IMG/VR virus record: IMGVR_UViG_3300037484_000435 | Location: 416,001-480,000 of that record | Direction: 5' to 3' (one strand) | Length of the DNA stretch: 64,000 nt | Origin: a virus | Taxonomy: Duplodnaviria > Caudoviricetes | Part shown: positions 31,577-63,832 of the stretch, piece by piece | Layout of the letters: every line of letters begins with the position of its first letter | Position numbering within the stretch: the stretch's first letter is position 1 | The notes under the pieces: generated by a model | Told to the model about the DNA's origin: nothing | The model's input: the letters and a program-made list of their open reading frames with translations, nothing else | Databases searched by the model: none | Made by a program: the position numbers and the translations under genes

Positions 31577-31629
31577 ACCCTATCTAACCCTTAGATCCTT
31601 ATTGAGGTAAGTGGGTACTTATCAAAAGG
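31577..31629. repeat. Dispersed hairpin element, copy 2
   Basis: ACCC..TAGAT-CCTT-attgagg-TAAG-tgggta-CTTA-tcaa-AAGG. Confidence 0.7.
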
Positions 31630-32684
31630 CTCTAATGAATTATTCGTGCAGGCGGACAGGGGAATAGATTCATTGTCTTATTATTAATATATTAGACGCG
31701 TGTGCCCTCCCACGTGAGACTGCTATCCCTTAGGACTGAGTATCACGTGGAAGTACACGAGACGGGAATCCTAACCAACAGGAGGATCTAGTCCCTCACT
31801 TCTTGTTGGCGTCTGTCCTCTTCAGATACTCCTCTGCCCGCCTTAGGGTATCCGAGCTACTTCGCAGGGCGTCTTGTGCACACTTACCTGTGCATAAACT
31901 TTCCGCCCTGTACCTATCCATCAGTGGGTTTTGCCTGAGCAAGTCCTTGGTGCATTGATCTACACAAGGTTCGGCCCATATCACACTGGGCAGTAACGCA
32001 AGGATAAATGCAAAAACCAAACCAACACTAACAACCTTCTTCATTCTTCTTCACCTCTTTCGATTTAACCTCCTACCTTTATAAAAATCTTAGGTGGAGG
32101 AGTTGGGAAGTAGGCACGAAGGGCTGAACATAGCCAACCTGTCATACCTGTTTCCTTGTGGAAGTAAGTCCTCTCCCCGATAGCTTCAAGCTCTGCGTCT
32201 ACGCCAGGGAAGGGCTTATCAGAAAAAGTTAGAGCAAACGACTGTTGTGGTGGCAACCCCTTGATACCCAAGATGTAGTTGATCATCTTAGGAGTACCTC
32301 CTAGAAACAGCTCCCTGTAAATACTCCGAGGGGGGGGTCATCGAATAGCCATCCGAAGCCTTTCTCGTAATAAGGCCTAATGGTGTACATGGCGACCTCT
32401 CCCTAGGCTTGTGCCTGATAATCTACTAGACTCGGTGACACGGCGATCAAGGTTTTATCGAAGAGCTCCCTCTCCACCCTCTCCTGCCTCTGAAGTTGTG
32501 CGAGAATGTGCTCCAATACCGTTGTGATTCGATCCAGTCTCTCCGCAATAGGAAATAAAATCCTTTTGCTGTCCTCGCCTTGTTGAGTGGTCTCTGTGGA
32601 CATCGCCTTCCTCCTGTTATTTTCTAAAAGATTGCTTAATCCCAGAGTTTGACGTTCTGAAATTCAGCAATACCTCAGAAAAAT

Positions 32685-33083
32685 AAGTCTTGGTAAATAA
32701 GTATCTGGTATGTTGCTGATATAGTAAGATGTCTTCCCCAAGACACCGCAACAAGGCTAGATACTCAACCGTTGGTGTGTGCGGGAAGCACCACCAAGGA
32801 CCGAAGACTTAGACTACTTTTAACGTAGACCAAAATTAATATGAAAGATTGCGAACTACTGTGTCTACGTTGGGGTCTCGGGACCGCCGACCGATGTTAC
32901 CAACCATCAGCAGAGTGGCAAAACCGTTCCCTGCCTAGTTAGTAATACTACCCGCTTAGTGTGGGGCTAACACTTCTTCACAGTTAGTCTTAGTGTTCTG
33001 TCCTGCAAAGATGACATTGAACACATCACCTAATTGATATAGCTCAATTTAGGAAAACTTAGTTTAGAACCAAGAGTCTAAAC
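32685..33083 (-). ncRNA. Structured ~400-nt intergenic RNA candidate
   Basis: Nested stems 32685-91/32804-10, 32699-706/32759-66, 32711-16/32748-53, 32728-35/32740-47; also 32822-30/32863-71, 33029-53, 33062-83; no ORF. Confidence 0.55.
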
Positions 33084-33091
33084 GTTTCTCT

Positions 33092-33526
33092 TTATCGAAC
33101 GGGAACCACGTTCGCTTCGGCTTCACTGTCCATCCAAGAGGCAAACCAAGAAACCGCCCCAAGGATAAGAGCAAGACCGATAACGATCGTGATGGCCCAG
33201 AACACTACTTTAACCGCTACGAACAAAGCTCCTGCAACCACCAAGATCGCTCCTACGAGGAAAGCACTGAGGGCAGAAACTGCAGCGGTAATGTTTCCTA
33301 CCAACCCTGCCAAGCTCAGCTTTCCAAGCCAAGCAACGGCGGCGGGGAAGATGTGAAACAGAGTGAAGAAGCCGATAGCAAACGCGAAGCCTGCTGCGAT
33401 GTGGTCACCCATAGCAACCACAACCGAACTAACCCAACGGCCACCCGCCTTGGCGGTTTCCCACACTCTGGCGATAAGGCCTTTGGTGGCGTCTTTCACA
33501 CCACCGAGATCGATTTTGTCCAACAT
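33092..33526 (-). CDS. Multi-pass membrane protein
   Basis: 3-4 hydrophobic Ala/Gly/Val-rich segments; GGAGG RBS. Confidence 0.7.
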   Translation of the reverse strand: MLDKIDLGGVKDATKGLIARVWETAKAGGRWVSSVVVAMGDHIAAGFAFAIGFFTLFHIFPAAVAWLGKLSLAGLVGNITAAVSALSAFLVGAILVVAGALFVAVKVVFWAITIVIGLALILGAVSWFASWMDSEAEANVVPVR

Positions 33527-33765
33527 AGGACACCTCCGAAAACTTTTTTAAAAGAGCGATGCTCTGTTTTGTCTTTGTTGTCATCTCCTTGCTATTGCAC
33601 CAGAGATTTACATTTGTCCTAACACACTCACTGTCTCCGTCGAGATTCAGTTCCTGTGTTGTTTTTAAACCTAGAAGAGTATTGATGGTGGGGCCATCTG
33701 AGATATTTTGGGGTAAACATTTTGTGACGACGTTTCCCTTACGTGACACATGAATAATAGTATTT

Positions 33766-33828
33766 ACCCAAATACTCTTCATTAAACTATAAATCCCTTT
33801 ATAGGGTAAGTGGGACTTACTATAAAGG
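33766..33828. repeat. Dispersed hairpin element, copy 3
   Basis: ACCC..TATAAAT-CCCTTTATAGG-GTAAG-tggga-CTTAC-TATAAAGG. Confidence 0.75.
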
Positions 33829-34199
33829 TATTGATATTAGAAAGCACGCAGAGGCGATGGGCGGTGGAGAAGTCGGGTTACCTATCCCTAGGTGCCTGCT
33901 TCTCCCCGATCCCCATTTAACAACTTTGCCAAAAGCTGTAAGGCTTATCGCGATAGCCTAGTAGTTTTTTGGCCGAGGTAACTACCAGACCTCATTTGGG
34001 GCCAAGAACATCCAAAAATTTTTTAAACACAGGGGCCATAATACCAAGGACTTGTACCCCCGACTCAATCTTTTGTGTGATTGAAGTATTTGAGTCAGAG
34101 CAATCCATATCTGCAGCACTAAGTATTATCCTGTTTGTATCTGATAATAAATTACGTTCAATTTTGTTTTTGTCCATGTTTGTTTATTTAACTCCTGAT

Positions 34200-39384: not shown

Positions 39385-40197
39385 TCACACACTGGTTATA
39401 CAGTTTGCTCTGAATCTACATTTTTTGTTATTGATAGCTTTTTTACTTCGTCGGGGTAAAAGTCGCTGAAGATCCTCAGAAGATAGATTAAAGTTTGTTA
39501 GAAGAATAAATTCCTCTGATATGCCCCAATGGGTTTCGTGTTTGACTTGGTCTGGGTTTAATAAAAACTTTTCAACAAGATCATATTTACGTTTCATGAA
39601 GAGTTCAGCATCTGTGTAAATCCACCTACAAAAGTCAATTGCCACAGAACCTCCATAATGCAGACGATAACAATTGTAACCTTTGTCTTTAAAGACACTC
39701 ACCTCGTTGTTATTTATTTCTCGGAAATGAGCTGCGACCCACTCCAACACCCATCTCGTGCTGGTAATACAAAGATGAAGGTCTCTTTGTCGGCAGGAAT
39801 CATCCACATTGCTTAATCCCCCATCACCATCAAAATAACCACGAATAAAATGTTTTATCATATCTGGTGGTAAATTTTTTGGTGGCTTAAGAGAAAGACT
39901 TTTGTTATTGTGTATACCAAAAGCGTTCAGTTGCTCGCACAGCTTCCTACTGTTAAAGGATACATGAGCAAAATCAAACGATTTTATCCCCGCATTGCCC
40001 CAAGTTTTGCGTTGTGTGTATTTAGTAATAGGTCGAGATGGTTGAATCTGATCCCTAATTACCCTAACTGTGTTTCTGTCCTTCGCTGATAGGTAAACTG
40101 AAACAGAACGATTATACTTATCTATAGACCCATCCGCGGCCAAAAAACCAAGTAGGTAGGCTTTATTTTGATGATCAATCTTACTGAAATCTAACAT
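39385..40197 (-). CDS. Free-standing LAGLIDADG homing endonuclease
   Basis: Two motifs, YLLGFLAADGSI and FIRGYFDGDGG. Confidence 0.9.
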   Translation of the reverse strand: MLDFSKIDHQNKAYLLGFLAADGSIDKYNRSVSVYLSAKDRNTVRVIRDQIQPSRPITKYTQRKTWGNAGIKSFDFAHVSFNSRKLCEQLNAFGIHNNKSLSLKPPKNLPPDMIKHFIRGYFDGDGGLSNVDDSCRQRDLHLCITSTRWVLEWVAAHFREINNNEVSVFKDKGYNCYRLHYGGSVAIDFCRWIYTDAELFMKRKYDLVEKFLLNPDQVKHETHWGISEEFILLTNFNLSSEDLQRLLPRRSKKAINNKKCRFRANCITSV

Positions 40198-47012: not shown

Positions 47013-48204
47013 AAAATTTTTTAACTAACTTAGTTTTTAGAGTAAGAAGTTAAAAATTTTAATGATGAGGTGATCTCAATTTGTTAACCTACAAATTCAG
47101 AATGTATCCAACAAAAATACAACAGGCAAAGCTCTGGAAACATGCAAATTTGTTGAATCGGCTTTACAATTACTTCCTAAAACAACGTTTAGAAGCATTT
47201 GAAAAGAATGAGCCAAGAATTTATCGCTATCAGCAACAGGCTGAATTGGTTCAATTAAAAAAGGATATCCCAGAGATTAAAGAGATCCATGCTCAAGTTT
47301 TACAACAAGTTCCGTTAAGATTGGATAATGCTTATACCGCGTTTCTTAAGAGAATCAAATTAAAACAAGGAAAGCCTTGCTATAGGAGTTGCCACAATTT
47401 CTTTGGAATTACTTATCCTCAGAGCGGGTACAAAATAACTAAAACAAGTCTCTGCACAAAAGCATATGGAAAAATAAAACTTTTCCAGCACCGAGGAGTT
47501 ATTGGAGAAATAAAACAAATCAAAATAATTTGCAAAAATGAGAAGTGGTTCGTATGTGTAACAACTGACCACAGGTTACCAACTTCTACCTCTGGGTCTA
47601 GAATGATTGGTTTAGATTTAGGTATTGCTAACTTGGTAGCAACCTCCGAAGGGGAAATTATACCCAATAGAAGTCACGCACGTTACTTTAATAAACAAAT
47701 CAACAAACTGAGATCACATCAGGATAAAAAATGCAAAAAAAACTCAAGGAGGCATAAATTTCTTTCTAGGTCTATTAGTAAGTTGTATGGTGCAAAAGTT
47801 AGAAAAACAAATGATTTTTTGCACAAGGTGTCTAGACGCCTAACCCTAAAATATGATACAATTGTTATTGAAGACCTTACACTGAAGAAGATGTCGGAAT
47901 CTAATATTAGAGGGTTAAACCGCGAATTGCGGAACAGTTGCTTAGCACGATTTATATATTACTTAAGTTACAAAGCCGAACGTTTAATAAAGGTTAATCC
48001 TATGAATACTTCCAAGATGTGTAATCGTTGTGGCCGTATTCATGATATGCCTTTATCAAAACGTACATTGGTTTGTGAGTGTGGAAATGTTGTAGATCGA
48101 GATGTTAATGCAGCTCAAAACATACTTTGCTTGGGACGAGCCTATTTATTAAATTTAATAGATAGTACTGCGATACTAACGCAGGAAGTGCTTGCACAGT
48201 TCAC
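47013..48204 (+). mobile_element. Non-autonomous IS200/IS605-type element carrying tnpB
   Basis: Left hairpin 47013-26/47048-60; right-end-like CAGGAAG..GTTCAC ending at 48204; opposite strand to its neighbours; no tnpA; left boundary approximate. Confidence 0.6.
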
Positions 48205-48244
48205 TAACCCTTCTTTCATGAAATATAACCTTAAAGTAGGGTAA
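47081..48244 (+). CDS. tnpB: RNA-guided endonuclease TnpB
   Basis: YKFRMYPT HTH, RuvC-I IGLDLG, RuvC-II VIEDL, zinc finger CNRCG..CECG, RuvC-III DRDVNAAQNI; catalytic residues intact. Confidence 0.95.
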   Translation: MLTYKFRMYPTKIQQAKLWKHANLLNRLYNYFLKQRLEAFEKNEPRIYRYQQQAELVQLKKDIPEIKEIHAQVLQQVPLRLDNAYTAFLKRIKLKQGKPCYRSCHNFFGITYPQSGYKITKTSLCTKAYGKIKLFQHRGVIGEIKQIKIICKNEKWFVCVTTDHRLPTSTSGSRMIGLDLGIANLVATSEGEIIPNRSHARYFNKQINKLRSHQDKKCKKNSRRHKFLSRSISKLYGAKVRKTNDFLHKVSRRLTLKYDTIVIEDLTLKKMSESNIRGLNRELRNSCLARFIYYLSYKAERLIKVNPMNTSKMCNRCGRIHDMPLSKRTLVCECGNVVDRDVNAAQNILCLGRAYLLNLIDSTAILTQEVLAQFTNPSFMKYNLKVG

Positions 48245-53185: not shown

Positions 53186-54280
53186 TTAAGCAAACTCTGT
53201 TCCTTTCCCCTTCGCGTGTCGGTCCTCATACGCATCGGATTTGTATTTCAAAATGACACGCCCAAATGCTGGGTCGTATCTTTCTTCCTGGGGTCTTATA
53301 ATTACACCCTCACTCATATGAGCGGATTCGGGTGGCATTAGTTGGGTGTTCTGGTTTGCACACTCCTTCATCCCTTCTTCGCTATAAGGTCCCACATAAA
53401 CGATTGGAACAAACTCTACATTGTGTTTGCGACACCAATCTTCAGCTTCTTGCCAGTTTAGGAATTTCCCATCCACACTAATATCGAACGCTCGATAGGC
53501 TAGTTCATTGTTGCGTCCGTATTTAAGGTCCTGCACACGACCAAATATTTCACCATAAACTATGACCGCATGTGCATGATAGGTAATCCTAATTTCCTCT
53601 AACATAGGCTCGACCAACTTAAGCGGGTATTGATAGAGGCTCAACTTCTTTGGGTCACCTTCTACAGGGTCCACATATTTCTTTCGTGTGTTGTGGGAAC
53701 CAATCATGTATATTAGGTCATCCCCGTCTTGAATCAAACCTACCTTTGAATTCGTGCCATGAATTTTTTCTTCGTAGCATACTAGTTCACCCCGTGTGAA
53801 TAAGTCAGGATAATTCCTCCAGTTCTCAACATGAGAGTAGTTAGTAAACAAAGGGTGGTCTTGTTCTTGGTCCCCAGAGTTTGGGACTAGTGGTTGTACA
53901 TATTTTGTTATGCCCAACTGTTCGGAAACTTCTTGTCCTACTTCAAAGTCCCAAACATTTGAGGCCGCTATCCCAAAGCTGAACTCTTGACGAAGTTTCA
54001 CCTGCCCAACACGGTTCCCCTTCTTCAAGTATTTTACAACATCGAGTTGCTCAGCCAATTCTTGCGGGAGAACAGCGTCAGGTGGAATAAAAACCCTTAA
54101 TTCACCTACCTGTGGATTCGTATCTTTATGTGTGCATACCTGCCAGCCCATAATTTCAATTAACAATAAGTTATCTGCATTTGGGTGCGGTTTTACTTCC
54201 TTTATAGGCACACAACGAACAATTAGACTACTTGGCATATATACTCCTTGAGAGGTAGGTCCCCCATAACGAGGGACCAC
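53186..54280 (-). CDS. ATP-dependent RNA ligase, DRB0094/Rnl2-like
   Basis: HPNADNL N-domain; motif I EEKIHGTN, VYGEIFG, YRAFDI, EGVIIR, ILKYKS. Confidence 0.9.
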   Translation of the reverse strand: MVPRYGGPTSQGVYMPSSLIVRCVPIKEVKPHPNADNLLLIEIMGWQVCTHKDTNPQVGELRVFIPPDAVLPQELAEQLDVVKYLKKGNRVGQVKLRQEFSFGIAASNVWDFEVGQEVSEQLGITKYVQPLVPNSGDQEQDHPLFTNYSHVENWRNYPDLFTRGELVCYEEKIHGTNSKVGLIQDGDDLIYMIGSHNTRKKYVDPVEGDPKKLSLYQYPLKLVEPMLEEIRITYHAHAVIVYGEIFGRVQDLKYGRNNELAYRAFDISVDGKFLNWQEAEDWCRKHNVEFVPIVYVGPYSEEGMKECANQNTQLMPPESAHMSEGVIIRPQEERYDPAFGRVILKYKSDAYEDRHAKGKGTEFA

Positions 54281-54975: not shown

Positions 54976-55995
54976 TCATGACGGTACCCCGATCCACGAC
55001 CAGCGCCAACTTGAGTATGTTTTGAAATTACAGTCATTTGGTTTAATCTTTTGACTCAGGCGCTTGCCTGTTTTTAAATCGTGTAAACTCAATCGATCCC
55101 CCTTATACCCCCCAATATAAGTTAATTGATATGTAGGGTGTTTAATTATACTACCACGCTTAAATCCCAAACTCATCGTGCTCCCGTAACGTTCGGGATT
55201 GCCTCCCTTCTTTAAATGAAATCGATGAAGTTGCCTGCGGTGAAATCGTAAAAATTCAACTCTTAGAATTCTTGTCATTGGGTTTAAATTCTTACTAAAG
55301 AAAAGTTCTGTTAAACAATGAGAGTCGACATTATGGGCTTCCCAAGACTCTTCTAACTTGTTTGTGGCCTTTCTAAATTCTCTTTTTTCGCGATGTTTCT
55401 TTGTGGCAGATCCAAGTATTTTATAAAAACCAAACCTTTCTGTAAAAAATTCATATAACCAAGTTTTACCAACCTCCAAGTTACTAAAAGCATCATTCCA
55501 TTTCGAATGTCCTTTCTTAGTGAAAGCTTTAATATCTTCAATGATAATATCCGTGATTGGTAAAATCTTGTTAAGCCAACTCACTAAACGAATCTTTGTT
55601 TGCCATCTGGCTTTTATTGAGGGTGGCAAAAAAGCCTTGTTTTTTCCCTTGTAGGGATTAGGTTTTCTACAAGGTGTTTTACGTGAACGTCTGGCTTTAC
55701 GCATGTCTCGTCGTGTAGACATAGACTCACTCACCCAATCAGGGGTATTAGTGAGAATGTTTAGCACTACTTGTTTTTCTGTTGCAACCGTATAGGCCTC
55801 CCGCTTGGATCCTGTATCTATCCCAACTACAACTTTCTGTTTTTTATCGTCAGATGGTTCAGTATTGAGCCTTACACAGAATATTCCTCTCTTCCAAAAC
55901 GGAGTTGCTTTACCTAATTTAATCCATCGTCTGGCCCTAGAAGGAGTTGTAGGCATTAAAGGGTTTTGCTCTTTGTCAATTACTGGAACTAACAT
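54976..55995 (-). CDS. isrB: IsrB (HNH-less IscB-family OMEGA nickase)
   Basis: PLMP domain, RuvC-I GIDTGSK, bridge helix RRDMRKARRSR, RuvC-II IIIED, RuvC-III HNVDS; no HNH insert; 339 aa. Confidence 0.85.
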   Translation of the reverse strand: MLVPVIDKEQNPLMPTTPSRARRWIKLGKATPFWKRGIFCVRLNTEPSDDKKQKVVVGIDTGSKREAYTVATEKQVVLNILTNTPDWVSESMSTRRDMRKARRSRKTPCRKPNPYKGKNKAFLPPSIKARWQTKIRLVSWLNKILPITDIIIEDIKAFTKKGHSKWNDAFSNLEVGKTWLYEFFTERFGFYKILGSATKKHREKREFRKATNKLEESWEAHNVDSHCLTELFFSKNLNPMTRILRVEFLRFHRRQLHRFHLKKGGNPERYGSTMSLGFKRGSIIKHPTYQLTYIGGYKGDRLSLHDLKTGKRLSQKIKPNDCNFKTYSSWRWSWIGVPS

Positions 55996-57973: not shown

Positions 57974-59131
57974 TCATCCTTTAACTACTCCTATCGGTGT
58001 TAACTTGGTCACAATCTTAACAAGGTCCTTTTGGTTTTCCATCACAGACTCAATATCCTTGTAAGCACCAGCAGCCTCGTCTAAGTCTTTCTCGTGGCGA
58101 ATCCCATGAACAACACCCAGATCATCCAGACGTTTAATTTCGTCCGCAAGATTTAAATTCTTTTTAGCCTGATTACGTCCCATCTTGCGTCCCGCACCGT
58201 GGCTACAACTATAAAAACTGTCGGGATTACCTAATCCCTCTACAATGTAGCTCGATGTCCCTTGGGAGCCTGGGATGATGCCAGCCTGTTTCTCTCGGGC
58301 AGAGGTCGCCCCCTTGCGATGTATATAAAGTTCCTTTCCGCCTATCTTTTCCAGCGATGCATAGTTATGTGCTATGTTGATGGGTTCTTGGAACTTCACC
58401 GGAGCGATTACTTCGAGAATGGCTGCCTCTACTTGATCTGCCATGACCTGTCGGTTCTGAAGGGCAAAGTCCACAGCATACTGCATTTCCAGAAGATACA
58501 GGTCGAAGTTAGGGTCTCCTTGCTCGAAGAATGCAAGGTCCCAACTTGGAGGTATGGGGTAGCCAGCCTTTTGGTTCTGGTCTTTAGCAATCTTATTATA
58601 GTGATCTGCGATCTGTTTTCCAAGATTTCGAGAACCTGAGTGGATCATATACCAGACATAACCATCTGAATCTACTTGTAATTCGAGGAAGTGGTTTCCA
58701 CCGCCTAAAGTACCTAATTGCACAGTAGCCTTTGGAAGCTCATGCTTGATAACAGGTAACTTATCAGGTGGTTTGTTTAACGGAGCAACACTGCTTTTGT
58801 GCCAATTGAATCCTACGGGCACACGCTGGCGAATGTTACCCATGACCGCTTTTACCTGATCACGTGTTATCTCTGTTATGCCTGTCTTGCACGCAAGCAT
58901 TCCACATCCAATATCAACCCCCACGGCATTCGGAATTACGACATTATCTAAAGCAATAACTCCACCTATTGGCATCCCAAAACCTTGGTGGGCATCGCTC
59001 ATGACCGCCACATGGTCAAATGCGAAGGGCAATTGGGCGAGGTTATCCACTTGAGTTCTGGCTCCTAGTTCTAGGTCAGGGCACCAACTGAAAACGGGAA
59101 CCCGATAAGTTTCTTTCTTGAATATATCCAC
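57974..59131 (-). CDS. rtcB: RNA-splicing/repair ligase RtcB
   Basis: MSDAHQGFGMPIGG, NAVGVDIGCG, GTLGGGNHF, HSGSRNLG, HRKGAT, SCSHGAGR. Confidence 0.97.
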   Translation of the reverse strand: MDIFKKETYRVPVFSWCPDLELGARTQVDNLAQLPFAFDHVAVMSDAHQGFGMPIGGVIALDNVVIPNAVGVDIGCGMLACKTGITEITRDQVKAVMGNIRQRVPVGFNWHKSSVAPLNKPPDKLPVIKHELPKATVQLGTLGGGNHFLELQVDSDGYVWYMIHSGSRNLGKQIADHYNKIAKDQNQKAGYPIPPSWDLAFFEQGDPNFDLYLLEMQYAVDFALQNRQVMADQVEAAILEVIAPVKFQEPINIAHNYASLEKIGGKELYIHRKGATSAREKQAGIIPGSQGTSSYIVEGLGNPDSFYSCSHGAGRKMGRNQAKKNLNLADEIKRLDDLGVVHGIRHEKDLDEAAGAYKDIESVMENQKDLVKIVTKLTPIGVVKG

Positions 59132-62830: not shown

Positions 62831-63832
62831 TCAATCCAATACTCGGTCTGCCATTTCCAAAACACTTTCTTTAGTCTTCGCTCGTGCTTGAAAGCGGGCA
62901 CGATGACAAAAAACAGCGTCAGGTAGACCAGTAATCCTTGCAAACTCTGGACCTTCTTTGCCCGCCCAATCAACGGGGAGCAATTTCTTTGATGCAAACC
63001 TATCCCCTGACTCAGGAACAGATTGAATAACCCAGTTGTTTGCGGATTCATCAAAGAATACTACAAACAGAATTTCTGGGTATCTAGCAACAGTTTCCCC
63101 CCACATAGCATGTCGCTTAAGTATAAGTAATCTTGGGTCATTTTGCCTAGATGTCTCAATAGCACGCATTACTAGGTCTTGGTCAGTAACCCAGTAACGG
63201 GCCTTCTCAATCTCCCGAGTTAATATGCCTTGAGCTTGTTCTACTGTTTCCATAAATTGTTTATAGAGTATAGCGTCTATCTCGTTTTGAGATTTTCCTA
63301 CAAATGAAGCAGAGGGTGAGATGAACCCTGCGATAAAAGATTGCAGGTCGTATACTCGGTAAGGGGTGTGCGGTGTGTAAGTATCGGTTCCACAGTCAAC
63401 CGCGTCGATACTAGATAGAAGCTTATCATCTATCCTATTGAAAATTTTTTCATCCCCCACAAATTCTGGCCAGAAATGCTTCCCGACCAAGCCTACAGAG
63501 GCGTAAGGCCTACCGTCAGGGCGGGCCAAAGTAAAGTCGGGCATGTGATGATCGAAATCGGTTGGTGGGGCATATTTCATCCCTACATCTACTCGTATAT
63601 CGGCTGTCTGTAATAATTCTTTATCCCGAGTACGAATAACATCAGATTGCGGGTGCACTAGCAAAATTATAGCAACCGCAAAAATATCATCGGCGTGTGG
63701 TGTGCCGTTATGTGTAGCAATTAAAGTCAAAGGTGTATCCATCTGTTTAAATTTGGCTAAAGCTAGTCCTAATACAAGACCGATCCCGATTAGGACTAGC
63801 ACCGACGTAATCTTCTCAATTGTTTGTTTCAT
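62831..63832 (-). CDS. MYG1-family exonuclease with N-terminal hydrophobic anchor
   Basis: THNGTPHADD, RTRD..RVDVG, FDHH, YASVGLV, AVFCHRARF. Confidence 0.88.
   Translation of the reverse strand: MKQTIEKITSVLVLIGIGLVLGLALAKFKQMDTPLTLIATHNGTPHADDIFAVAIILLVHPQSDVIRTRDKELLQTADIRVDVGMKYAPPTDFDHHMPDFTLARPDGRPYASVGLVGKHFWPEFVGDEKIFNRIDDKLLSSIDAVDCGTDTYTPHTPYRVYDLQSFIAGFISPSASFVGKSQNEIDAILYKQFMETVEQAQGILTREIEKARYWVTDQDLVMRAIETSRQNDPRLLILKRHAMWGETVARYPEILFVVFFDESANNWVIQSVPESGDRFASKKLLPVDWAGKEGPEFARITGLPDAVFCHRARFQARAKTKESVLEMADRVLD

What the first reader, a model, noticed from the sequence alone, without database searches (positions are those of the whole stretch)
32685..33083. ~400-nt deeply nested structured RNA between two genes
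A four-level nested domain (7, 8, 6 and 8 bp, including G-U pairs that work in the - sense) plus further hairpins, and a long-range AGACUA/UAGUCU helix next to a 9-bp stem. That arrangement superficially recalls the P7/P8 region of group I introns, but no gene is interrupted. It may be a new ncRNA, a ribozyme-like relic or a long regulatory leader of ORF 32403-32603.
Basis: partly seen in the sequence, partly recalled or inferred. Interest (0 to 1): 0.62.

Follow-up and report, generated by a model that had tools for sequence, protein, structure and literature searches.

The report
Hairpin-rich non-coding spacer in megaphage operon
A 488-base gene-free stretch between two orphan genes of a 545-kb uncultured phage folds, in the sense of those genes, into a string of stable RNA hairpins; it is most likely a structured spacer or leader of the messenger RNA, it shows no sign of being an intron or ribozyme, and no relative was found to test it further.

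Summary
The window is part of a 545,322-bp IMG/VR phage record. The stretch 32604-33091 is non-coding: all six frames are closed by mixed stop codons. It lies between two minus-strand orphan genes of 144 aa and 66 aa.

It has 21 G-U pairs, against 9 on the plus strand. Most of the excess lies in the 3' 197 nt (z -5.13).

The "P7/P8-like" multibranch core is no better than chance as a fold (z -1.36). Its closing 17/20 complementarity is nevertheless statistically unusual, and so is a second 16/20 one that reaches into the 66-aa gene.

No Rfam family matches, group I included. I found no paralog in the genome and no homologue in five related phages or the public collections, so covariation cannot be tested. 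Neighbouring coding sequence can also reach z -3.4.

Best reading: a structured intercistronic leader for processing, stability or translation control. An orphan ncRNA gene is not excluded. This scan has already noted similar orphan structured stretches in the same genome.

The parts
32604..33091 (-). Whole non-coding spacer (488 nt) between the stop of the 144-aa ORF and the start of the 66-aa ORF
   Evidence: All six frames closed by mixed stops. MFE -157.3, z -5.76 on the minus strand. Codon-usage score negative in all frames over 33100-32741.
33062..33083 (-). Hairpin 1: AU-rich stem, 7 bp in the MFE, just after the stop codon of the 144-aa ORF
   Evidence: Mean pair probability 0.84. Not a canonical terminator.
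32985..33004 (-).
   Evidence: 20-nt arms, 85% complementary, to 32797-32816. A 17/20 long-range complement was seen in 0 of 300 shuffles. It is in the MFE or centroid of the isolated spacer but below 0.5 probability in the extended context.
32897..32945 (-). Three-part hairpin (10 + 7 + 3 bp) inside the core
   Evidence: Pair probabilities 0.90-0.97 and the lowest positional entropy of the core.
32872..32888 (-). Short G+C-rich hairpin GGCGGUC-CCGA-GACCCC
   Evidence: Pair probability 0.93. In shape it recalls the hairpin of the promoter-like motif found elsewhere, but the motif search did not match it.
32822..32871 (-). 9-bp perfect stem with a 32-nt A+U-rich loop
   Evidence: Inverted repeat I7, 100% complementary. 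Pair probability only 0.52. The loop holds a weak sigma-70-like match, TAGACA-18-CATATT.
32797..32816 (-). 3' arm of I2. Positions 32804-32811 can pair instead with 32684-32691 (8/8) to close the nested domain.
   Evidence: The two pairings exclude each other. A perfect 8-mer complement is expected by chance in a stretch of this size (my estimate).
32772..32797 (-). Hairpin A: 10-bp stem with loop UUCCC
   Evidence: Pair probability 0.95.
32698..32767 (-).
   Evidence: Pair probabilities 0.97, 0.99 and 0.93. Part of the 197-nt segment with z -5.13.
32621..32681 (-). Hairpin C: 24 bp in two 26-nt arms with two 1x1 mismatches and a 9-nt loop, ending about 6 nt before the Shine-Dalgarno sequence. 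It is a candidate RNase III-type site.
   Evidence: Pair probability 0.91. Five of its pairs are G-U, counted by hand from the arm sequences printed, and become A-C on the plus strand. Its upstream-hairpin stability ranks 43 of 735 genes.
32601..32614 (-). Shine-Dalgarno GGAGGAAGG and the ATG of the 66-aa ORF
   Evidence: Read from the sequence. SD bases have unpaired probabilities of 0.10-0.31, but no single partner exceeds 0.47.
32574..32593 (-). 3' arm of the long-range complementarity I3, inside codons 4-10 of the 66-aa ORF. It pairs with 32741-32760, the 5' arm of hairpin B, so it excludes hairpin B.
   Evidence: 16/20 complementary with 9 contiguous pairs. The two long-range complements together occurred in 0 of 300 shuffles.

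Best explanation
The stretch is a non-coding, minus-sense, hairpin-rich intercistronic spacer that also serves as the 5' leader of the 66-aa ORF. It lies inside a phage transcription unit of small orphan genes.

Shown: it has no open frame. It holds about six local hairpins, three of them very well defined. One is a 24-bp hairpin ending a few bases before the ribosome binding site. There are two statistically unusual long-range complementarities: one closes a 170-nt core, and the other links hairpin B to the first codons of the downstream ORF.

Inferred: the RNA is co-transcribed with the flanking genes. The long duplex acts as a processing or stabilising site, cut by a host RNase III-type enzyme as in phage T7 polycistronic mRNA. 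The competing pairings (hairpin B against I3; I2 against the 8-bp closing helix) set how much of the 66-aa protein is made.

It is not a group I intron or any other catalogued RNA.
For: The stretch is non-coding. The minus strand has excess stability and 21 G-U pairs against 9, and both flanking genes are on that strand.

The signal is concentrated just upstream of the 66-aa ORF (z -5.13), while the ORF itself has z 0.02. Hairpins A, B and C have pair probabilities of 0.91-0.99.

Hairpin C has 24 bp. An idealised E. coli RNase III substrate has 22 bp, and T7 carries five such signals in its polycistronic early mRNA (PMC3867540, read).

The long-range complements of 17/20 and 16/20 are not seen together in any of 300 shuffles. 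The second one overlaps codons 4-10 of the ORF.

The promoter-like hairpin motif of this genome arm occurs at 33803-33820 and 31605-31622 but not inside the stretch. No intrinsic terminator lies in it. This fits read-through from the 144-aa gene. The leader of the 144-aa gene is also structured (z -3.87), so structured leaders recur here.
Against: No transcript data exist, so co-transcription, processing and the RNA ends are all inferred. No homologue exists, so no helix has covariation support.

The global fold is ill defined (ensemble diversity 120), and the long-range helices have probabilities below 0.5. The core is no more stable than shuffles.

A neighbouring coding region reaches z -3.42, and one of 60 coding windows reaches z -6.3, so the z-scores alone are not proof.

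The phage encodes no RNase III and its host is unknown. The promoter motif is itself unverified. At 488 nt the stretch is long for a mere spacer.
Confidence: 0.5

Rival explanations
1. It is a stand-alone gene for a stable non-coding RNA of 400-490 nt of a new, so far single-member class. The RNA could be a scaffold, a decoy or a ribozyme, with its own promoter and a non-canonical 3' end.
For: The stretch is long, ORF-free and structured with minus-strand asymmetry. An unusual 17/20 helix closes a 170-nt multi-hairpin domain. The genome is rich in RNA biology: 40 tRNAs and RtcB, an RNA ligase and MYG1 in the same window. Earlier notes of this scan record other orphan structured RNAs, Y RNAs and a tmRNA in the genome (unchecked by me). 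There are weak sigma-70-like matches inside the stretch.
Against: Promoter-like and terminator-like matches are no more frequent than in shuffles. The phage's own promoter-like motif is absent. There is no Rfam match. Models R1 and R2 find no structural paralog in the genome and no homologue in five relatives. The core domain has z -1.36. The best-defined structure abuts the ribosome binding site of the next gene, as leaders do.
Confidence: 0.2
2. It is a functionally neutral remnant, such as a decayed orphan gene or a recombination scar in a fast-changing accessory region. Its hairpins and inverted repeats would be historical accidents or leftovers of a small mobile element with 20-bp inverted ends.
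For: Both flanking genes are orphans known only from this contig. No neighbour is syntenic in any relative. The adjacent DUF6717 gene is itself frameshifted, so decay does occur here. The I2 arms look like terminal inverted repeats around a 210-bp unit. A coding region next door also reaches z -3.4.
Against: No frame keeps a codon-usage signal over most of the stretch. There is no other copy of the putative element in 545 kb, and I see no target-site duplication at the I2 ends (read). A neutral sequence would not be expected to show z -5.1 together with a G-U asymmetry that favours the transcribed strand.
Confidence: 0.2
3. It acts at the DNA level. The palindromes would be protein-binding operators or a replication or recombination site rather than RNA helices.
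For: The plus strand also folds better than shuffles (z -3.41). The long complements are Watson-Crick at the DNA level.
Against: There are 21 G-U pairs on the minus strand against 9 on the plus strand. Five G-U pairs in hairpin C would be A-C mismatches in a DNA cruciform or on the plus strand (arm sequences). There are no iterons or tandem repeats. The GC-skew turn of the window lies near 18 kb, not here.
Confidence: 0.07
4. The 3' third encodes a small protein. The candidate is the 45-aa ORF 32617-32754 with a TTG start, whose stop lies 13 nt before the next ATG.
For: An open stretch of 63 codons lies in that frame. Its codon score of about +0.1 is similar to that of the 66-aa ORF. Its spacing to the next gene is operon-like.
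Against: It has only a TTG start with a poor ribosome binding site. The collection that holds both neighbours does not hold it as a called gene. It would be almost entirely buried in hairpins B and C, the most stable structures of the region.
Confidence: 0.03

Closest known systems
RNase III processing hairpins between cistrons of phage T7 early mRNA (five signals in the ~7000-nt precursor; Nicholson review, PMC3867540)
   Same: Hairpin C is a long, slightly imperfect RNA duplex of 24 bp, close to the two helical turns of an ideal substrate. It lies between same-strand phage genes, directly upstream of the next gene's ribosome binding site.
   Different: Cleavage is untested and the host is unknown. 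The phage has no RNase III gene of its own. Here the hairpin is only one of about six in a 488-nt spacer, far longer than a T7 site.
Group I self-splicing introns (Rfam RF00028)
   Same: Only a superficial likeness: a multibranch domain closed by a long-range helix next to a 9-bp stem, in a phage.
   Different: The covariance model does not match even at E <= 10. No gene is interrupted. The core is no more stable than shuffles. I saw no guanosine-binding P7 or P3-P8 pseudoknot.
Large ornate phage and prophage RNAs: GOLLD (RF01998) and ROOL (RF03087); accessions as given in earlier notes of this scan and from my own knowledge
   Same: A phage-borne, ORF-free structured stretch of several hundred nucleotides with no known function.
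   Different: No match to any Rfam model. It is shorter and has no conserved family. Its architecture is dominated by independent hairpins rather than a defined multi-domain fold.
Structured translational leaders of bacterial and phage mRNAs, in which alternative pairings mask the ribosome binding site or the first codons (general knowledge)
   Same: Well-defined hairpins lie directly upstream of the SD. A 16/20 complement links the leader to codons 4-10 and competes with hairpin B. The SD is mostly paired in the ensemble.
   Different: No ligand, protein or sRNA partner is known. No single SD partner dominates. At about 490 nt the leader is unusually long. Regulation is untested.
Promoter-stem-loop-flanked orphan cassettes of T4-like hyperplastic regions
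   Same: Small orphan genes in a fast-changing phage region, with a recurring hairpin-plus-TATA motif upstream of genes.
   Different: The target stretch itself carries no copy of that motif.

Membership tests
Group I intron (RF00028) | Match to the family covariance model (conserved P3-P8 core with P7) | tested here: not met
   No hit at gathering score in the window. No hit at E <= 10 in 32550-33150. The genome-wide search finds only an 18.7-bit hit at another place, while the control genomes respond.
Group I intron (RF00028) | Interrupts a gene whose exons join into one product | tested here: not met
   The upstream ORF ends in a stop codon. The downstream ORF has its own GGAGG and ATG. Both are orphans, so no uninterrupted homologue exists to compare.
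Group I intron (RF00028) | Guanosine-dependent self-splicing | not testable with these tools
   Needs in vitro transcription and a GTP assay.
GOLLD, ROOL, HEARO, OLE and all other Rfam 15 families | Match to the family covariance model | tested here: not met
   The best hits are miRNA or sRNA models at E 0.3-7, far below their gathering scores.
RNase III processing site of a phage polycistronic mRNA | Roughly two helical turns (about 22 bp) of near-continuous dsRNA | tested here: met
   Hairpin C at 32621-32681 has 24 bp with two 1x1 mismatches and pair probability 0.91. The criterion is taken from PMC3867540.
RNase III processing site of a phage polycistronic mRNA | Lies inside a co-transcribed unit between cistrons | tested here: inconclusive
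   The flanking genes are on the same strand. There is no terminator and no copy of the promoter-like motif inside the stretch. There are no transcript data.
RNase III processing site of a phage polycistronic mRNA | Cleavage by RNase III | not testable with these tools
   Needs an enzyme assay or RNA-end mapping. No phage RNase III gene was found.
Translational leader with masking of the initiation region | A defined alternative pairing that covers the SD, start codon or early codons | tested here: inconclusive
   A 16/20 complement to codons 4-10 competes with hairpin B. SD unpaired probabilities are 0.10-0.31, but the best partner has only 0.47.
Miniature inverted-repeat element | Terminal inverted repeats plus a target-site duplication plus further copies | tested here: not met
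   The inverted ends are present (17/20). I see no duplication at the ends. There is no second copy in the genome by blastn, nhmmer or model R2.

The most novel reading that the evidence does not exclude
The stretch is a gene for a stable, stand-alone RNA of a new class. A 170-nt multi-hairpin domain closed by the 20-nt helix and a three-hairpin 3' domain would act together as a scaffold, decoy or catalyst during infection by a megaphage that also carries many other unusual RNAs.
Probability: 0.12. Interest if true: 0.6.

Novelty: new member of a known kind. Interest (0 to 1): 0.3.

Why it matters
If the reading is right, this is one more example of how very large phages use long, folded stretches of messenger RNA between small accessory genes to control processing and translation. 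That is useful for annotating megaphage genomes but is not a new principle.

It would matter more if transcript mapping showed a discrete stable RNA. It would then join several other orphan structured RNAs noted in this same genome, and together they would suggest an unexplored RNA repertoire in this phage clade. The report also removes a tempting but unsupported intron or ribozyme label.

Tried and rejected
**Rfam.** A gathering-threshold scan of the whole window and an E <= 10 scan of the stretch gave nothing usable. RF00028 genome-wide gave only an unrelated 18.7-bit hit.

**Coding.** Six-frame stops, alternative stop reassignment, short ORFs, codon-usage scan and exact look-up of the 45-aa ORF gave no support for a gene.

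**Paralogs.** Sensitive blastn, nhmmer and single-sequence covariance models R1 (3' domain) and R2 (core) found only the stretch itself in the 545-kb genome.

**Homologues.**
- INPHARED phages by blastn: none.
- Flanking proteins: the 144-aa and 66-aa proteins exist only on this contig and gave no related viral loci.
- The 298-aa neighbour has 41-45% relatives on contigs with no shared synteny.
- DUF6717 relatives lie on tiny contigs.
- Terminase-based relatives have 47-61% identity and contigs of at most 260 kb. Five of them contain neither the 298-aa neighbour nor matches to R1 or R2.
- Exact 19-20-mers: none in metagenome or viral contigs. Eight hits in genome contigs are about the chance number for 596 Gb (my estimate) and do not match R2.

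**Sequencing runs.** No RNA holder is listed. Four freshwater DNA runs hold only near-identical 151-nt pieces, with no usable variants in the stretch.

**Other checks.** Promoter and terminator scans were no better than shuffles. No phage RNase III was found. Pfam, PHROGs and the Atlas say nothing about the flanking ORFs. Two genome-wide local-fold scans timed out. The window-wide scan shows that the individual hairpins are not among the 25 most stable local structures in absolute energy. Mirroring the minus-strand structure onto the plus strand gave an energy I do not trust, because of the non-canonical pairs.

Full report
**Where the window lies.** The window is bases 416001-480000 of a single 545,322-bp IMG/VR virus record. 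Its GC content is 0.42, and it carries 40 tRNA genes including one with a CUA anticodon. The target lies in an arm where almost all genes are on the minus strand. On that strand the order is:
- a 144-aa membrane-like ORF (33526-33092);
- the 488-nt gap (33091-32604);
- a 66-aa ORF with a GGAGG ribosome binding site (32603-32403);
- a DUF6717 gene;
- an 82-aa ORF.

**Is it non-coding?** Every frame of both strands is closed several times, always by a mix of TAA, TAG and TGA, so no single stop reassignment opens it. The short ORFs inside have no convincing ribosome binding site. A codon-usage scan is negative in all frames over 33100-32741. It is only marginally positive (+0.1 per codon) over the 45-aa TTG ORF 32617-32754. 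The collection that holds both neighbouring proteins does not hold that ORF.

**Is it more structured than chance?**
- The whole gap as minus-strand RNA folds to -157.3 kcal/mol, against -123.3 +/- 5.9 for dinucleotide shuffles (z -5.76, 0/100).
- The plus strand gives z -3.41.
- The minus-strand MFE has 21 G-U pairs and the plus-strand MFE has 9. Hairpin C alone has five, by my count from the arm sequences. This favours an RNA in the sense of the flanking genes.

Cutting the gap into parts changes the picture:
- 5' 101 nt: z -1.9;
- multibranch core 32790-33010, the part that recalled P7/P8: z -1.36, with 22 of 200 shuffles as good;
- 3' 197 nt: z -5.13, 0/200.

Controls from the same genome:
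- the 66-aa ORF has z 0.02;
- the 144-aa ORF has z -3.42;
- sixty 200-nt coding windows have mean -0.56, sd 1.42, and minimum values of -6.3 and -3.9;
- among 45 ORF-free gaps (central 400 nt, 8 shuffles each, so noisy) about ten exceed shuffles by 0.04 kcal/mol per nt or more on at least one strand, and this gap is one of them.

The excess structure is therefore real and localised, but it is not unique in this genome.

**Anatomy.** I computed a partition function over 33100-32560, which includes 40 nt of the downstream ORF. It gives well-defined local hairpins:

| Element | Coordinates | Helices | Pair probability |
|---|---|---|---|
| Core hairpin | 32897-32945 | 10 + 7 + 3 bp | 0.90-0.97 |
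| G+C-rich hairpin | 32872-32888 | 6 bp | 0.93 |
| Hairpin A | 32772-32797 | 10 bp | 0.95 |
| Hairpin B | 32698-32767 | 9 + 6 + 8 bp | 0.93-0.99 |
| Hairpin C | 32621-32681 | 24 bp | 0.91 |
| Hairpin 1 | 33062-33083 | 7 bp in the MFE | 0.84 |

Hairpin C ends a few bases before the Shine-Dalgarno sequence.

The global architecture is not defined. Ensemble diversity is 120. The 9-bp stem has probability 0.52. The long-range helix that closes the core in the isolated gap drops below 0.5.

Two long-range Watson-Crick complementarities are nevertheless statistically unusual. One is 32796-32815 with 32986-33005 (17/20). The other is 32574-32593 with 32741-32760 (16/20). In 300 dinucleotide shuffles the mean number of such pairs was 0.03; none had two, and none had a 17/20 pair (arms first listed).

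The second complement links the 5' arm of hairpin B to codons 4-10 of the 66-aa ORF, so it excludes hairpin B. The 3' arm of the first can pair instead with 32684-32691 (8/8) to close hairpins A and B. These are candidate alternative states, but nothing shows that they are used.

**Transcription context.** A hairpin-plus-TATA motif noted earlier in this scan recurs upstream of minus-strand genes. I found it at 31605, 33803, 34896, 37242 and 46955: five matches against 0.86 expected, with 0/100 shuffles reaching five. None lies in the gap. Sigma-70-like and terminator-like matches are no more frequent than in shuffles.

This fits read-through from a start near 33800 through the 144-aa gene and the gap into the 66-aa gene. 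It is inference only: no RNA run is listed. The leader of the 144-aa gene is also structured (z -3.87).

**Known families.** No Rfam 15 model matches the window at gathering score. In a 601-nt search at E <= 10 the only hits are four junk matches to miRNA and sRNA models. RF00028 over the whole genome gives one 18.7-bit hit elsewhere, while the control genomes respond. ARAGORN finds nothing in the window. The group I reading therefore fails its main test, and no gene is interrupted.

**Relatives and covariation.** The stretch has no paralog in the genome by blastn, nhmmer or covariance models R1 and R2. There is no match in INPHARED phages. Both flanking proteins exist only on this contig.

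Neighbouring proteins gave either no related viral loci or 41-45% relatives without shared synteny. The closest phages found through the terminase have 47-61% identity. Five of them hold neither the 298-aa neighbour nor any match to R1 or R2.

Exact-word scans found nothing beyond chance. The freshwater runs hold only near-identical 151-nt pieces. Half of the refutation criterion (MFE comparable to shuffles) is not met for the whole stretch but is met for its core.

**Mechanism.** The best-supported reading is a structured intercistronic spacer and leader. Hairpin C has the size of an RNase III substrate: an ideal one has 22 bp, and T7 uses five such signals in its polycistronic early mRNA (PMC3867540). 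It sits where cleavage would separate the two cistrons and leave a stable end. The phage has no RNase III of its own, so a host enzyme would be needed. The hairpin B/I3 competition could tune translation of the 66-aa ORF.

Rivals are an orphan ncRNA gene, a neutral remnant in a decaying and fast-changing region, a DNA-level element, and a small ORF. I give them about 0.2, 0.2, 0.07 and 0.03.

**Verdict.** The hairpins, the nested domain, the strand asymmetry and the long-range complement are real. The compact ribozyme-like fold is not supported. The feature is an ordinary kind of thing, a structured phage mRNA leader or spacer, in an unusual genome. It is without relatives, and this scan has already noted similar orphan structured stretches at 18.0-18.6 kb and 34.2-34.8 kb of this window. 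Interest 0.3.

Noticed in passing
window 32065-32390, minus strand (homopolymer at 32333-32340): The DUF6717 gene just downstream of the 66-aa ORF is split by a frameshift. The N-terminal part (MYTIRPYYEKGFGWLFDDP...) and the 73-aa C-terminal ORF lie in different frames, which meet at a run of eight C (minus strand). Homologues of 113-135 aa align across both parts. This could be a homopolymer assembly error, a pseudogene or slippage.
   Followed up: partly
window 33527-33830, minus strand: The leader of the 144-aa ORF is also more structured than shuffles (z -3.87, 0/100). It begins with the hairpin-plus-TATA motif at 33803-33820.
   Followed up: partly
window 31605, 33803, 34896, 37242, 46955 (minus strand): The motif GTAAGTMCCMYYTWACCC recurs upstream of minus-strand genes: five matches against 0.86 expected. 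It is a candidate phage-specific promoter or cassette boundary.
   Followed up: partly
genome 288395-332530 (outside the window), minus strand: A single open reading frame of 14,711 codons, with neighbours of 5,054, 3,403, 2,539 and 2,161 codons.
   Followed up: no
window 39385-40197, 47081-48244, 53186-54280, 54976-55995, 57974-59131, 62831-63832: The same arm encodes a LAGLIDADG-like protein, a TnpB-type (OrfB_IS605) protein on the opposite strand, an RNA ligase, an RRXRR protein, RtcB and a MYG1-family exonuclease. This is a cluster of RNA repair and mobile-element genes.
   Followed up: no
genome 47126-47202 (outside the window): ARAGORN calls a tRNA with anticodon CUA, a reader of TAG, among the 40 tRNAs. 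TAG ends 67 of 406 long ORFs, so recoding is not obvious.
   Followed up: no
genome 220939-221078 (locus L037): The only genome-wide match to the group I intron model is 18.7 bits at E 0.005, below the cut-off. It lies inside a 658-codon ORF and is probably chance.
   Followed up: no
window 32740-32747 (loop GGGG), 32783-32787 (loop UUCCC), about 32960-32966 (loop AGCCCCA): The GGGG apical loop of hairpin B is complementary to the C-rich loops of hairpin A and of a core hairpin, so loop-loop contacts are possible. I read this from the sequence only and did not test it statistically.
   Followed up: no
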